Part shown: positions 45,506 through 49,664 of the stretch, one piece after another | Numbering within the stretch: the first letter of the stretch is position 1 | Layout: the number at the start of each line of letters is the position of its first letter | Source: the human T2T-CHM13v2.0 reference genome, Homo sapiens | Reading direction: 5' to 3' (one strand) | Length of the DNA stretch: 64,000 nucleotides | Assembly (NCBI RefSeq): GCF_009914755.1 | Contig: NC_060931.1 | Program-made: the position numbers and the translations under genes | Notes under the pieces: model-generated | The model's input: the letters and a program-made list of their open reading frames with translations, nothing else | Database searches by the model: none | What the model was told of the DNA's origin: nothing

Positions 45506-45942
45506 TGTGATGATTAATATTGAGTGTCAACTTGATTGGATTGAAGGATGCAAAGTATTGATCCTGGGTGTGTCTGTGAGGGTGTTGGCAAAGGAGATTA
45601 GCATTTGAGTCAGTGGGCTGGGAAAGGCAGACCCACCCTCAATCTGGTGGGCACAATCTAATCAGCTGCCAGCGAATATAAGGCAGGCAGAAAAACGTGA
45701 AAAGGCGAGACTGGCCTGGCCTCCCAGCCTACATCTTTCTCCTATGCTGGATGCTTCCTGCCCTCGAACGTCAGACTCCAGGTTCTTCAGTTTTGGGACT
45801 TAGACTGGCTCTCCTTGCTCCTCGAGCTTGCAGATAGCCTATTGTGGGACCTTGTGATTGTGTAAGTTAATACTTAATAAACTCCCGTATATATATATAT
45901 CTCCTGTTAGTTCTGTCCTTCTAGGGAACCTTGACTAACACA
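45506..45942 (+). mobile_element. MLT2A1-like solo LTR (HERVL)
   Basis: Starts TGTGATGATTAATATTGAGTGTCAACTTGATTGGATTGAAGG, ends CTAACACA; 5-bp TSD CAAGT; TATA-like 45677; AATAAA 45876. Confidence 0.92.
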
Positions 45943-46853
45943 CAAGTATACCAGTTAGGTTAGTTAGGTTTGTTGTCGTGGTTCAGATAGTGATAGTGGC
46001 CCACTGGAGACTGGGCTGGTCGTGCGGGGAATGGAGAGAAGAATGATGCAGAGACACTGGCTTTGTAATGGACAGGTTTTGTGTTTCGATATTTGTTAAA
46101 ACTGAATGATGAGTACATGGGGTAAGTTTTACTACTCTTTCTAATTGTGAATATATTTGAATTTTTTCCACAATAAAACGTTGAAAAGAAATGGACGGGT
46201 TGTATGGATTGAGTGGATTCACAGGATTCATGAGTCGGAAAGCAGGAACTGAGTCCTGGGTGCCTGGCTCGAGCCGCTGGGTGAGTGGTGGCACTTGCCG
46301 AGAAGAGCTCCAGAGAACACAGGACTGGGGAGCAGATCAGGCCATTCGTGACATAGGCTTTGGAAATCCCATGATAGCCCAGGGCAGGCCACACGGGCTC
46401 ACCTGGGGGAAGTTTGGTGTGGATGTGAATGTGTCCGTCCTAGGTATAACAACAACTGAAATCATATAGGAGTTGAATGAGCCCTTAGGGACAAGCCCTG
46501 GGAGATGTCCTGTTTCTTACATGTGAAAAGCTCTCGTGAATACACAGAGGGTCCTGAATCAAACCCATTACTACTTTATTTTTTTAAACCTCAAACCTTT
46601 GTTCTTTGCTTTCTTGAAAAAACATCCATTTGATCCAGCTGATCTCTCTCCTCTCTGTTTTATAACCTGTCTTCGTTGTTTACCTCCTGAATGCTAAATC
46701 TACTCCCCTTTTGAACATCTTTTCTCTATTTGCTGACTAGTTCCTTAAAATTCTCTCCCGTATATTATTCTAGTGTGTTGTCTGCTTCTTGACCAGTTCC
46801 TAAATGGCTTTTCTCTGAACCTCAAATGCTAAATTCACATTTTCAAGGCCAGA

Positions 46854-47154
46854 TTTTTTTTTTTTTTTTTTTTTTGACAGAGTCTCGCACCGTCACCTGG
46901 GCTGGAATGCAGTGGCGCGATCTCGGCTCACTGCATCCTCCATCTCCCGGTTCAAGCGATTCTCCTGCCTCAGCCTCCCGAGTAGCTGGGATTATAGGCG
47001 CCTGCCACCACCCTCAGCTGATTTTTTTGTATTTTTAGTAGAGATGGGGTTTCACCATGTTGGCCAGGCTGGTCTAGAACTCCTGACGTCATGATCTGCC
47101 CGCCTACGCCTCCCAAAGTTCTGGGATTACAGGCATGAGCCACCGCGCCCGGCC
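46854..47154 (-). mobile_element. AluSg/Sc-like
   Basis: TSD aaggccag. Confidence 0.9.
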
Positions 47155-48589
47155 AAGGCCAGTGTTTTGACACTTTTCCTTTAGTAGGTTCCATGCAAGT
47201 CCTCCCATCTCACCAGCCAGACTGCTGTAGTTGAAAGAATTTTGGAATTGGAGTCTGAAGACTTCTTTACTCCTGGAGATTTGGCTTTCCATGTGAGAAG
47301 TTGTTCCTGGCATTCCTTGGGAAATTGGTATTTTTCCAAATTACAAATCTGAGGAAAAATGGCCAAAACATTTTGAGAAAATACAGAAAAGTATTATAAT
47401 TTGGAAACGTTATAGTCAACATAGAGACATCACTGGTTCAGAGGAGTCCACCAATGACAAGTCGCAAGCAAGAGCGTGAGTAAGTTGAGGCTGGCGTTTT
47501 CGGGAATGAGGGTGAAGGCGTGTGGCAGGGAAGCCGTGCAGGCCGAGTGGTCAGGCTGCCAGGTGGGCAAGGCCTTCTAAGTGTGGATCTGTAGCCCCTC
47601 TGCTGCTAAGGGTGAAGTCATTCTTGCAAATAAAATAAGTATTAATATTTATATACATAACATGCTATATATAAACCCTGTGAGGGGTCTTCCAAAAAAA
47701 TAGCAAGTTTTGGAAGCAAATTGAGTCCTTCAATTGGCAGTTGTGACACGCAGTTCTTTGTAGGGCCGTTAACTTGTTAAGGATCCTGCATGTTACCGTA
47801 TTCGAAAACTACCCAATAGCGTTTCTAGCATTTTCCAGTGTTTGAATCCTCGCTGTAGGCTGGAGCACTTTGTAAATACTGTAACAGAAGGAAGGCAGAG
47901 AGAAGAATATGTGAATGTTCTGGAATAATTTGACATGAAATCTGAAAGTGATCTAAAATCTGAATTGGCAGAAGCAATATCTATTTCAGTGACAAAACCA
48001 CAATTAGGTCAAGCAGAAAATATTTTCATTGTTTAAAAGAAGCAAGCTTATATGAAGTAAGATATGGCCCAACTTGGAGGTGCTTTTGGTTCACTCTGAA
48101 GATTAAGACCATCCAGGCAAAGTGGAAGAAGTTTCCCTACGTCTGGGATAGCCATGAAACAAAGAGCAAGGCTATCTGGTAGTGCAGTTCACGCTCTGTG
48201 TGTTTTAACATTTTTAAGATGGTAATTTTAAAATATTAAATATCTGCAATACTGCCTTTCAATATTAAGTGATTTTTATTTGGCAATTATTTTGCATTAA
48301 GTTCCCTTTTAATGTTTTCTCTTATCAAATGTTTATGTCAGGTGGAGACCATATTTATATCTTATTGAACTTAGCACAATATATTCATAATAAACCTTGC
48401 ATTTATTATATAGAGCTTTTTTTAACAGGAAACTTCTGACACTCTTAAGTGTAACCCTGTTGCAGAAAAATCATTCATCCTTACTGATACTCATTGTTAT
48501 TTAAAAACAAGTAAATCAAATGTTATAAAAAATGCAGAATAGGTAGAATTGGGAATGCTGATTTCTGGCACCTGAGCCCTGCAGATTAA

Positions 48590-49200
48590 TGTATCGTGAT
48601 GTGGAAACATGGGCGTGCCGCGGCGCCTGGATCTGTGCTTGGCTGGGGGTGACCCGGAGCTCCCTCCCACCAACCTTCCCAGCCGGGCTCCCTCGCAGCC
48701 CGGAGCCAAGCCTGTGCCTGCCACCATTTCCTGGCAGTGTGCTTAGCTGTGACAGTTTCTACGTCTGTAGAATGGGGATGAAAACAGCACCTGCTGCCCA
48801 GTGTGGGCTTTCGCGGTCTCATGAAGGGTGGTGGCGGCGTGCGCTGCATGCCTAGCAGCAGCGCTGTTTTTCTCATTAGCACTTAGCTCCGTCTCCTTTG
48901 CCTTCCATTGTCGCCGCCTTCCTTTGGCCACAGGAGCCTCTGCGGCCAGCCTTCCCGTTGCATTTCCATGTTGTTCCTTGTTCCGGGGAGGCCCCTTTGC
49001 TGCCCTGCGCCGCGCTCCGCCCCTCTTCCCGTCCTGCGATGAGGCCCTGGCCCCCGGCATCGCCACGCGGATCCGCGCCTCTGGTTTGCAGTGGGTGGGG
49101 GCCGCAGTCAGACTCCCGCCCTGAGCCCCGCTTTCCCTCGCGTTGCCTGCCCAGCCGGGCTGATGACCGACCTCGGCGGCTAAACGCCTTCTCCAGCTGA
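48590..49200. promoter_or_regulatory. Intragenic CpG-rich island in intron 9
   Basis: About 27 CpGs counted by hand in 48901-49200, high GC, GC boxes (CTCCGCCCC, CCCGCCC), sharply bounded by AT-rich DNA. Confidence 0.75.
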
Positions 49201-49556
49201 AACAGAGTCCAGAGTTCCACTGTTTAACAAGGAGGAATTGGCAAAGCAGAACTGTCACTTGGAAAATGCTGTTTTCATGATCTCTTTGAGTTTTCACTGT
49301 TTTTAATGCAAGCTCGGAATCAATATTTAGTTTTGAGTGTGGAGAATAGATTGTTTTTTCTTTTATATATATAAACAAAATGTCCTATGTGTTTCAACGA
49401 TGGTACCAAAAGTATTTCTTGCTCTTATCTCTTAACTTTGAAAAGGTATCTATAGCTTTTAGAATATTTTGTATGCTAGTACATGCATTGTATACCTTAA
49501 TACACAATTTAATCCCCAATAACCAACTTTTGTTTCTATTTCTGCCCCCATTTAAG

Positions 49557-49664
49557 GACCCCAAAATGTATGTACAGACAGTGCTTGATGTTCATAAAAA
49601 ATACAATGCCCTGGTAATGTCTGCATTCAACAATGACGCTGGCTTTGTGGCTGCTCTTGATAAG
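49557..49664 (+). CDS. CUL1: CUL1 exon 10 (108 nt; [10 protein letters not shown]...AALDK)
   Basis: tttaag|GAC ... AAG|gtaggt. Confidence 0.97.

What the first reader, a model, noticed from the sequence alone, without database searches (positions are those of the whole stretch)
45506..49568. Sense MLT2A1 LTR in intron 9: candidate DUX4/embryonic alternative promoter for an N-terminally truncated CUL1
Seen: a complete TSD-bounded LTR in the CUL1 orientation. It carries two DUX4-like motifs (TGATTGGATTG 45533-45543; CAATCTAATCA 45654-45664), TATAA at 45677 and a consensus donor GT|GTAAGT at 45862. The next exon (10, phase 0) reads GAC CCC AAA ATG, with A at -3 of Met365. Established: MLT2A1/HERVL LTRs are DUX4-activated promoters at human zygotic genome activation and can splice into host genes. 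The CUL1 N-terminus binds SKP1/F-box proteins; the C-terminus binds RBX1 and carries the neddylation site K720. Inference: an LTR-exon10 transcript would encode a protein of about 412 aa that could titrate RBX1/NEDD8 without recruiting substrates. Caveat: two uORFs in the LTR exon (ATG 45744 and 45751) both stop within it, and the LTR's own AATAAA competes with splicing.
Basis: partly seen in the sequence, partly recalled or inferred. Interest (0 to 1): 0.7.

Follow-up and report, generated by a model that had tools for sequence, protein, structure and literature searches.

The report
Solo HERV-L (MLT2A1) LTR in CUL1
This is an ordinary, well-preserved leftover end-piece of an ancient retrovirus sitting inside an intron of the CUL1 gene; it carries its family's usual promoter signals, but nothing seen here shows that CUL1 uses it.

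Summary
Window 45506-45942 (+) is a complete 437-base solo LTR (TG...CA) flanked by a 5-base repeat, in the CUL1 sense, in intron 9. By length, layout and print (Hashimoto 2021) it is MLT2A1, the HERV-L LTR. The family has thousands of copies here: 4506 hits of one 20-mer against 2 in the control. Print dates the family to the simian ancestor, 45-65 My. Divergence measured here fits that date. This copy is among the least diverged (rank 2 of 49), which is within the tail of a single burst.

The motifs are inherited family features, not specific to this copy. Its TATA hexamer is a form found in 0 of 87 sampled copies. RefSeq has no exon in the LTR. Four literature searches found no paper that links CUL1 to this family. 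Published base rates are low: 280 of 2416 long copies are active in embryos, and 25 elements are spliced to coding genes. The predicted 412-aa protein would start inside the N-terminal domain. Verdict: a real, known kind of element and a legitimate but unsupported hypothesis.

The parts
45501..45505 (.). Left copy of the 5-base flanking repeat (CAAGT)
   Evidence: Read directly. Among 10 other end-to-end copies, 2 have a perfect 5-base flanking repeat and 1 more matches at 4 of 5.
45506..45942 (+). Solo LTR, 437 bases, TG...CA, MLT2A1 type (HERV-L)
   Evidence: The 39 best genomic copies are 87-91% identical, and 19 of 39 align 1-437. It is the only copy in the window. RefSeq masks 45511-45926. 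The layout fits the printed description.
45533..45543 (-). DUX4-like motif, reverse orientation
   Evidence: The same letters occur in 27 of 39 and 22 of 48 copies. Print: MLT2A elements have two DUX4 motif-like sequences, one in each orientation, upstream of the promoter.
45559..45564 (+). TGATCC hexamer at LTR positions 54-59 (the place of the OTX2-type TAATCC variant)
   Evidence: Shared by 29 of 39 and 28 of 48 copies. Print: TGATCC in 55.2% and TAATCC in 11.8% of MLT2A1 elements near position 50.
45654..45664 (+). DUX4-like motif, forward orientation
   Evidence: The same letters occur in 21 of 39 and 16 of 48 copies.
45677..45682 (+). TATA element, reads TATAAG in this copy
   Evidence: This form is in 0 of 39 and 0 of 48 copies. 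TATAAA is in 34 of 39 and 23 of 48.
45710..45720 (+). Expected start-site zone (LTR positions 205-215), inferred only
   Evidence: Print: start sites lie at consensus positions 205-215, in an AG-rich stretch downstream of the TATA box. Here an AG-rich stretch runs 45680-45712. No expression data were seen.
45744..45803 (+). Upstream ORF 1 (19 codons plus stop)
   Evidence: This ATG is present in 21 of 39 and 21 of 48 copies.
45751..45837 (+). Upstream ORF 2 (28 codons plus stop)
   Evidence: This ATG is present in 36 of 39 and 35 of 48 copies.
45859..45867 (+). Splice-donor-like site TGT|GTAAGT; the intron would begin at 45862 (LTR position 357)
   Evidence: Print: donors cluster near position 350 in MLT2A1. 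GTAAGT is in 19 of 48 and GTGAGT in 19 of 48 copies.
45876..45881 (+). AATAAA poly(A) signal of the LTR
   Evidence: Present in 32 of 39 and 33 of 48 copies.
45943..45947 (.). Right copy of the 5-base flanking repeat (CAAGT)
49557..49664 (+). CUL1 exon 10 (residues 362-397), phase 0. The first ATG, 49566-49568, is Met365.
   Evidence: PDB chains place it at residues 362-397 and inside the 396-aa N-terminal piece 1ldk_A. It matches Pfam Cullin profile positions 306-341 of 620, at 25.4 bits, below the 33.2-bit cut-off because the query is short.

Best explanation
A solo LTR of the HERV-L family, MLT2A1 type, is left in CUL1 intron 9, in the sense orientation. It remained after the two LTRs of a provirus recombined. 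The family spread in the ancestor of simian primates.

The LTR keeps the standard promoter module of its family: two DUX4-like sites, a TATA element, a start zone, an internal splice donor and a poly(A) signal. It has these features because it is one of the less decayed copies, not because CUL1 uses them.

Its most likely activity, if any, is the brief family-wide transcription at the 4- to 8-cell stage. That would give a short or non-coding by-product. A CUL1 isoform from it is possible in principle but is not shown.
For: Shown here:
- Ends, flanking repeat and all motifs are present.
- There is a single copy in the window.
- The genome search gave 5537 first-look candidates; 40 were scored, and the 39 others are 87-91% identical.
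- One 20-mer has 4506 genome hits against 2 in the control.
- The layout matches print. MLT2A1 is 444 bp and MLT2A2 549 bp; start sites at 205-215; donor near 350; TGATCC near position 50; two DUX4-like sites upstream of the TATA box. In this copy these lie at positions 172 (TATA), 357 (donor), 54-59 (hexamer), and 28-38 and 149-159 (the two sites).
- In a position-ordered sample of 60 copies, 5 carry about 100 extra bases after position ~295 and total about 550 bases, which is the MLT2A2 form. This copy lacks that segment.
- Same-strand pairs of copies 6.0-6.6 kb apart fit proviruses.

Age:
- The mean branch per copy is 0.082 K2P (0.070 without CpG-prone columns).
- Two LTR pairs differ by 0.124 and 0.140.
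- Print gives a simian-only distribution, 45-65 My.

No use by CUL1 was seen:
- No RefSeq exon lies in the LTR.
- No relevant paper was found.

Published base rates:
- 280 of 2416 long MLT2A1 copies are active in embryos.
- About 97% of acceptors are in unannotated or non-coding sequence, and 25 human elements are joined to coding genes.
- 778 of 3780 MLT2A1 copies are DUX4-bound in myoblasts, and 42 are activated.
Against: - This copy is unusually well kept. Its branch is 0.045 against a median of 0.079, rank 2 of 49. Only 10 of 382 columns carry a base that fewer than 20% of copies share, and all 48 sampled copies score higher.
- Only 1 of 48 sampled copies keeps both motifs, TATAA and GTAAGT together as this one does.
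- It lies in the sense orientation of a coding gene. That is the rarer state: of 99 copies, 5 are sense, 27 antisense and 67 intergenic.
- These points fit a copy that could still fire.
- I saw no expression, ChIP or junction data for or against. The supplementary tables that list every element were closed.
Confidence: 0.8

Rival explanations
1. DUX4 binds the two motifs at zygotic genome activation and transcription starts near 45710. The LTR exon splices from 45861 to exon 10. After two short upstream ORFs, translation starts at Met365 and gives a 412-aa CUL1 that holds RBX1 and is neddylated at K720. It cannot bind SKP1, so it would compete with full-length cullin.
For: - All sequence elements are in place and in the right order.
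- No ATG lies in the frame that stays open to the donor, so Met365 would be the next start after the two upstream ORFs.
- There is an A at -3 of Met365.
- Both upstream ATGs sit in weak contexts (read).
- Print shows MLT2A1 first exons spliced to host genes (ABCE1, COL5A1), one of them with a predicted shorter protein.
- A strong donor just upstream of a poly(A) signal usually suppresses that signal (recalled, from work on U1 snRNP and retroviral LTRs).
- K720 and the Cullin_Nedd8 domain lie in the retained part.
Against: - There is no RefSeq model and no paper.
- CUL1 is absent from the main text of the paper that lists MLT2A-gene junctions; its list of 25 genes is in a closed supplement.
- The TATA hexamer is a form seen in 0 of 87 copies, and a second upstream hexamer (45640-45645) is a form seen in 1 of 39 and 3 of 48.
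- A crude count finds 8 rival AG sites whose pyrimidine tracts are comparable to that of exon 10 between the donor and exon 10. Exon 10 itself has an AAG acceptor.
- Met365 lies inside the N-terminal piece of the solved split structure, 46 residues before its end. The product would therefore carry a partial helical repeat.
- Titration would need an amount comparable with the abundant full-length protein.
Confidence: 0.06
2. The LTR fires at the cleavage stage like about a tenth of its family. It makes only short polyadenylated RNAs, or transcripts spliced to cryptic acceptors in intron 9, with no effect on the CUL1 protein.
For: - 280 of 2416 long MLT2A1 copies are active in embryos.
- About 97% of the acceptors used lie in unannotated or non-coding sequence.
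- This copy keeps both motifs and the donor.
- Rival acceptor-like sites exist, for example at 46881 and 48683.
- The LTR's own AATAAA lies 15 bases past the donor.
Against: The TATA variant is unique to this copy. No expression data were seen. Most copies (about 88% of the long ones) are not active.
Confidence: 0.2
3. As a sense-oriented LTR it acts on the CUL1 pre-mRNA itself. An acceptor-like site inside the LTR, together with its donor or its poly(A) signal, gives a rare cassette or terminal exon and an unproductive CUL1 transcript.
For: - Acceptor-like sites lie at 45775 and 45827, upstream of the donor and of AATAAA.
- An 87-base cassette, 45775-45861, would be read in phase 0 and meets a stop.
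- Sense copies in genes are rare (5 against 27 antisense). That fits such signals being harmful.
Against: No RefSeq transcript has such an exon. The acceptor scores are crude and weak (14 and 16 of 20 pyrimidines). CUL1 is an essential gene that has tolerated the insertion for tens of millions of years.
Confidence: 0.03

Closest known systems
MLT2A1 first exons of ABCE1 and COL5A1 in human pineal gland (Hashimoto et al. 2021, PMC8559712)
   Same: The LTR family and module are the same: a start downstream of the TATA box and an internal donor near position 350 spliced to a host exon. For COL5A1 a shorter protein is predicted.
   Different: - Those cases rest on CAGE and RNA-seq; this one has no expression evidence.
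- Five of the eight pineal-active MLT2A1 copies carry TAATCC. This copy carries TGATCC.
- Those LTRs replace the first exon. Here 9 exons and 364 residues would be lost.
DUX4-bound LTR promoters in DUX4-expressing myoblasts (Young et al. 2013, PMC3836709)
   Same: MLT2A1 is among the most enriched DUX4-bound repeat types and the LTR type most often activated. Some bound LTRs form new first exons of genes.
   Different: The verified gene fusions named there are MaLR LTRs (THE1B-HEY1, MLT1B-PPCS, MLT1E1A-NT5C1B). CUL1 is not in the main text (implied). Only 42 of 3780 MLT2A1 copies were activated.
MLT2A2, the sister HERV-L LTR
   Same: It shares the 5' part, the DUX4-like motifs, the TATA box, the start zone and a donor near position 350.
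   Different: MLT2A2 is 549 bp and has a second donor near position 450. In my sample the long form has about 100 extra bases after position ~295 of this copy (5 of 60). This copy has neither feature.
CUL1 C-terminal domain-RBX1 module of the split structure 1LDK
   Same: A CUL1 piece without the N-terminal domain is a stable, solved unit. The predicted product contains all of it.
   Different: The N-terminal chain 1ldk_A still contains residues 362-397. The predicted product would therefore start 46 residues upstream of that boundary, inside the last helical repeat (the repeat name is recalled). No natural isoform of this kind was found in print (listing only).

Membership tests
MLT2A1 (LTR of HERV-L) | Length near 444 bp, without the extra segment that brings MLT2A2 to 549 bp | tested here: met
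   The LTR is 437 bases. Of 60 sampled copies, 25 align end to end with this copy and 5 carry about 100 extra bases after position ~295, for a total near 550.
MLT2A1 (LTR of HERV-L) | Two DUX4 motif-like sequences, one reverse and one forward, upstream of the TATA box | tested here: met
   They lie at 45533-45543 and 45654-45664, both upstream of the TATA element at 45677. Printed description. They were not scored with the JASPAR matrix.
MLT2A1 (LTR of HERV-L) | TGATCC or TAATCC hexamer near position 50, between the two DUX4-like sites | tested here: met
   TGATCC at LTR positions 54-59. Print: 55.2% TGATCC, 11.8% TAATCC.
MLT2A1 (LTR of HERV-L) | TATA box followed by start sites at consensus positions 205-215 in an AG-rich stretch | tested here: inconclusive
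   A TATA element lies at positions 172-177 and an AG-rich stretch follows. The hexamer is a form found in 0 of 87 copies. Start sites cannot be seen with these tools.
MLT2A1 (LTR of HERV-L) | A single GT donor near position 350 | tested here: met
   GTAAGT starts at position 357 and is the only GTRAGT in the LTR. Print.
MLT2A1 (LTR of HERV-L) | Many dispersed copies of similar divergence | tested here: met
   There were 5537 first-look candidates, and the 39 scored copies are 87-91% identical. The 20-mer gave 4506 hits. Print: more than 3000 copies of each family and 3780 MLT2A1.
MLT2A1 (LTR of HERV-L) | TG...CA ends and a short flanking repeat made at integration | tested here: met
   Of 10 other full copies, 2 have perfect 5-base flanks. 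That this class makes 5-base repeats is recalled.
MLT2A1 (LTR of HERV-L) | A formal call by a repeat library (Repbase, Dfam or RepeatMasker) | not testable with these tools
   No repeat library is on hand. The RefSeq mask carries no family names.
MLT2A1 (LTR of HERV-L) | Copies flank HERV-L inner sequence | not tested
   Only the spacing was seen: same-strand pairs 6647, 6045 and 6025 bases apart. Inner genes were not read.
MLT2A1 (LTR of HERV-L) | Present in simian primates only; the orthologous site is filled in monkeys | not testable with these tools
   No other primate genome is on hand. The family-level distribution is from print.
LTR-driven alternative promoter of a host gene | A transcript that starts in the LTR and is spliced to the host exon | tested here: not met
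   There are six RefSeq CUL1 mRNAs and none has an exon in 45506-45942. Reads, CAGE data and supplementary tables were not available, so this is a weak negative.
LTR-driven alternative promoter of a host gene | Binding of the activating factor (DUX4) at this copy | not testable with these tools
   No ChIP-seq data are on hand. Print: 20.7% of MLT2A1 copies are bound in myoblasts.

The most novel reading that the evidence does not exclude
This copy is one of the few MLT2A1 LTRs that fire at human genome activation and splice into a coding gene. It would give a cleavage-stage transcript whose first usable start is Met365 of CUL1. Its product, without an adaptor-binding end, would take up RBX1 and NEDD8 and briefly dampen SCF activity in the early embryo. 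The copy's low divergence and its rare sense orientation in an essential gene would then reflect retention rather than chance.
Probability: 0.04. Interest if true: 0.6.

Novelty: already known. Interest (0 to 1): 0.2.

Why it matters
As it stands, this is a routine repeat annotation: a masked solo LTR of a well-studied family. If the chimeric transcript existed, it would link a primate-specific retroviral promoter to a core ubiquitin-ligase scaffold at the moment of human genome activation. That would be a concrete, testable case of an LTR that changes the protein made rather than only the level of expression. The check is cheap: the needed embryo, 8-cell-like-cell and DUX4 data sets are public.

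Tried and rejected
- Naming from a repeat library: none is on hand. The name rests on the LTR's layout against print.
- Naming against copies that print names (the MLT2A1 copies at ABCE1 and COL5A1, the MLT2A2 copy at GALNT13). I found the gene spans but left the step out. The paper's main text gives no positions, and a blind fetch of tens to hundreds of kilobases could have brought in unrelated proviral genes.
- Rfam scan of 45200-46300: no family.
- CpG retention as a sign of germline hypomethylation. This copy has 7 CpGs against a sample median of 3. Only 3 of the 7 lie at places where the copies show the CG/TG/CA mix of an old CpG, so I rejected it as evidence.
- Low divergence as a sign of constraint. 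The branch of 0.045 is about 2 standard deviations below a near-Poisson spread (quartiles 0.066-0.088). I do not take it as evidence of selection.
- A search of protein databases for a 412-aa CUL1 isoform was left out. The query would have to be a joined sequence typed into a call, and no single exon reaches the length window.
- Splice-site scoring was only a crude pyrimidine count; no trained model was on hand.
- Literature: searches found nothing that links CUL1 to this LTR family or describes a natural truncated human CUL1. Supplements were closed. Several of them may bear on the claim: Hashimoto Tables S1 and S2 and Figure S3G-H, the supplementary tables of Young 2013, and the supplementary data of Torre et al. 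2023 (PMC10616205).

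
Full report
**1. What is there**

Window 45506-45942 is a 437-base element that begins TG and ends CA. It is flanked on both sides by CAAGT (45501-45505 and 45943-45947). The reference's own repeat mask covers 45511-45926. 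It is the only copy in the 64-kb window, so it is a solo LTR and not part of a provirus.

- the two homeobox-type motifs at 45533-45543 and 45654-45664,
- TATAA at 45677,
- GTAAGT from 45862,
- AATAAA at 45876,
- two upstream ATGs, at 45744 and 45751, that stop at 45801 and 45835.

The remaining frame is open to the donor but contains no ATG. In NM_003592.3 the flanking exons are exon 9 (33399-33529) and exon 10 (49557-49664). Exon 10 starts in phase 0 after 1083 coding bases, so it reads D362 P363 K364 M365, and 412 of 776 residues remain from Met365. K720 lies in IVRIMK in exon 21, in the Pfam Cullin_Nedd8 domain.

**2. Is it more than chance**

- A whole-genome search with the 437 bases gave 5537 first-look candidates. 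The 40 that were scored are the element itself and 39 copies at 87-91% identity, with E-values from 1.6e-169 to 2.3e-155.
- 19 of those 39 align from base 1 to base 437, which fixes the ends.
- A 20-mer from the LTR has 2322 forward and 2184 reverse matches at up to two mismatches. The reversed control has 1 and 1.

**3. Family, from the LTR and from print**

No repeat library was on hand. I compared the layout with Hashimoto et al. 2021 (PMC8559712). I read sections 4, 5, 6, 8 and 10 in full, and passages of the Discussion and Methods.

| Feature | Print | This copy |
|---|---|---|
| Length | MLT2A1 444 bp; MLT2A2 549 bp | 437 bases |
| DUX4 motif-like sequences | two, in opposite orientations, upstream of a TATA box | positions 28-38 (reverse) and 149-159 (forward) |
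| Hexamer near position 50 | TGATCC in 55.2%, TAATCC in 11.8% | TGATCC at 54-59 |
| TATA element | upstream of the start sites | 172-177, followed by an AG-rich stretch |
| Start sites | consensus positions 205-215, in an AG-rich stretch | not observable here |
| GT donors | near 350 in MLT2A1; near 350 and 450 in MLT2A2 | a single GTAAGT at 357 |

I fetched the first 60 of the 100 listed exact matches of the 20-mer, all on chromosome 1. They fall into these classes:
- 25 align end to end with this copy.
- 19 stop near position 395.
- 8 resume after 30-145 extra bases (about 30-60 in 7 of them) at that point.
- 1 has a deletion.
- 5 carry about 100 extra bases after position ~295 and total about 550 bases.
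- 2 end near position 295.

The 550-base class fits the printed MLT2A2 length, and this copy belongs to the short class. Same-strand pairs of matches 6647, 6045 and 6025 bases apart fit full proviruses. I did not read their inner sequence. The name MLT2A1 (HERV-L LTR) is therefore well supported, but it is not a formal library call.

**4. Age**

Print places both MLT2A families in simian primates only, and dates their spread to 45-65 million years ago.

Measurements here used no consensus:
- Among 48 sampled chromosome-1 copies the mean pairwise K2P distance over positions 1-383 is 0.163 (0.140 without CpG-prone columns). That gives about 0.082 (0.070) per copy.
- Two presumed provirus LTR pairs differ by 0.124 and 0.140.
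- With neutral rates of 1.2 to 2.2 per billion years per site (recalled values), the family branch corresponds to roughly 37-68 My, and the LTR pairs to roughly 28-58 My. This agrees with print.

This copy's own branch is shorter:
- It is 0.045 (0.031 without CpG columns), rank 2 of 49, against a median of 0.079 and quartiles of 0.066-0.088.
- Only 10 of 382 columns carry a base that fewer than 20% of copies share. In the sample the median is 6.0% of columns and the minimum 3.0%.
- Taken alone, this branch would give 20-37 My.
- It lies about two standard deviations into the tail of a spread that looks like a single burst.
- My best estimate is therefore the family's age. A later insertion is not excluded. 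Only the orthologous sites in monkeys can settle it.
- With the 39 best matches the figures were 0.105 (this copy against the others) and 0.111 (among the others). These are biased low by the way the copies were chosen.

**5. Are the promoter features special to this copy**

| Feature | Best 39 | Chromosome-1 sample of 48 |
|---|---|---|
| Reverse DUX4-like motif, same letters | 27 of 39 | 22 of 48 |
| Forward DUX4-like motif, same letters | 21 of 39 | 16 of 48 |
| AATAAA | 32 of 39 | 33 of 48 |
| GTAAGT donor | not tallied for this hexamer | 19 of 48 (GTGAGT in a further 19) |
| TATAAG, this copy's form | 0 of 39 | 0 of 48 |
| TATAAA | 34 of 39 | 23 of 48 |
| CAATCT at 45640-45645, this copy's form | 1 of 39 | 3 of 48 |

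The two motifs are simply the commonest forms at those places. They are inherited, not acquired.

On the other side, only 1 of 48 copies keeps both motifs, TATAA and GTAAGT together as this one does. So it is a well-kept copy, with one blemish in the core promoter.

The exon side of the donor (TGT) does not match the usual consensus (the consensus is recalled).

**6. Evidence on use by CUL1**

- RefSeq lists six CUL1 mRNAs, all with 22 exons, and none has an exon in the LTR. RefSeq functional elements lie at 48204-48906 and 49107-50306, not on the LTR.
- Of six other chromosome-7 copies, only one overlaps any annotated exon. It lies wholly inside a 4-kb CREB5 model exon.
- The literature searches were: MLT2A1 with CUL1, 0 papers; CUL1 with DUX4 and LTR, 1 unrelated paper; CUL1 with HERVL, 1 unrelated mouse paper; CUL1 with alternative promoter and retrotransposon, 0 papers.
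- A search for truncated CUL1, CUL1 isoforms or the CUL1 C-terminal domain gave only in-vitro constructs and a plant allele (listing only).

Published base rates are low:
- 280 of 2416 long MLT2A1 copies are active at the 4- to 8-cell stage.
- About 97% of the 1504 robust acceptors lie in unannotated or non-coding sequence, and 25 human MLT2A elements are joined to coding genes.
- In myoblasts that express DUX4, 778 of 3780 MLT2A1 copies are bound and 42 are activated (Young et al. 2013, PMC3836709, passages and Table 1).
- Torre et al. 2023 (PMC10616205, passages only) confirm that LTR-promoted isoforms abound in embryos. Cullin is not in its main text.

The lists that would name this copy are in closed supplements.

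**7. The proposed transcript and protein**

- Between the donor and exon 10, a crude count finds 8 AG sites with at least 16 of 20 pyrimidines upstream. Exon 10 itself has 17 of 20 and an AAG acceptor. Competition is therefore likely.
- The poly(A) signal lies 15 bases past the donor. A strong donor there would be expected to suppress it (recalled).
- Both upstream ATGs are in weak contexts, and Met365 has an A at -3.
- Exon 10 (residues 362-397) lies inside the 396-residue N-terminal chain of the split structure 1LDK, at chain positions 348-383. It matches Pfam Cullin profile positions 306-341 of 620.
- The product would therefore be the whole C-terminal domain plus a 46-residue stump of the N-terminal domain.
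- It could plausibly bind RBX1 and be neddylated. Titration would need an amount near that of the full-length protein, and nothing suggests that.

**8. Context**

Of 99 copies placed against coding-gene spans, 67 are intergenic, 27 antisense and 5 sense. A sense copy in an essential gene is the rarer state. This fits selection against sense LTR signals in genes. It does not by itself argue for a function.

The pineal lead is weak. Print ties pineal activity to the TAATCC form, and this copy has TGATCC.

**9. Verdict**

This is a real, ordinary and already well-described kind of element. The alternative-promoter model is a fair hypothesis built on family-wide features, and it has no support specific to this copy. 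I put the chance that an LTR-exon 10 transcript is detectable at under one in ten. The chance that it makes a protein that matters is a few per cent.

Noticed in passing
window 45888-45900; L044, L053, L055, L058, L080, L081, L085, L095: The family varies in length just after the poly(A) signal, where this copy has a short TA run. Of 60 sampled copies, 19 stop aligning near position 395 and 8 resume after 30-145 extra bases, about 30-60 in 7 of them. It may be a sub-form of the LTR or a variable simple repeat.
   Followed up: partly
L072, L073, L075, L076, L077 (chromosome 1, about 120.0-148.6 Mb): Five sampled copies differ by only 0.003-0.011 K2P. One LTR has evidently been carried along in recent segmental duplications around the chromosome 1 centromere. 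Four of the five rows were dropped from the counts.
   Followed up: partly
window 45953-45970: A perfect tandem doubling of a 9-mer (AGTTAGGTT twice) lies a few bases after the right flanking repeat of the LTR.
   Followed up: no
window 48204-48906 and 49107-50306: RefSeq functional elements (an hESC H3K27ac-H3K4me1 enhancer and a 'MED14-independent group 3' enhancer) lie between the LTR and exon 10 and over exons 10-11. None lies on the LTR.
   Followed up: no
G000:C7:28585255-28585686 (L004): A sense-oriented copy in CREB5 lies wholly inside a 4-kb exon of the model transcript XM_054359398.1. It is a case of a copy of this family taken into an annotated exon.
   Followed up: no
window 45706, 45769, 45823, 45886: Four of this copy's seven CpGs lie where almost no other copy has CG; most have CA or another pair. 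They appear to be new CpGs rather than retained ones.
   Followed up: yes
window 46881 (inside masked repeat 46845-47160) and 48683: These are the two strongest acceptor-like sites by a crude pyrimidine count between the LTR donor and exon 10 (18 and 17 of 20, both CAG).
   Followed up: no
99 genomic copies: Copies inside coding-gene spans show a strong antisense bias: 27 antisense against 5 sense.
   Followed up: partly
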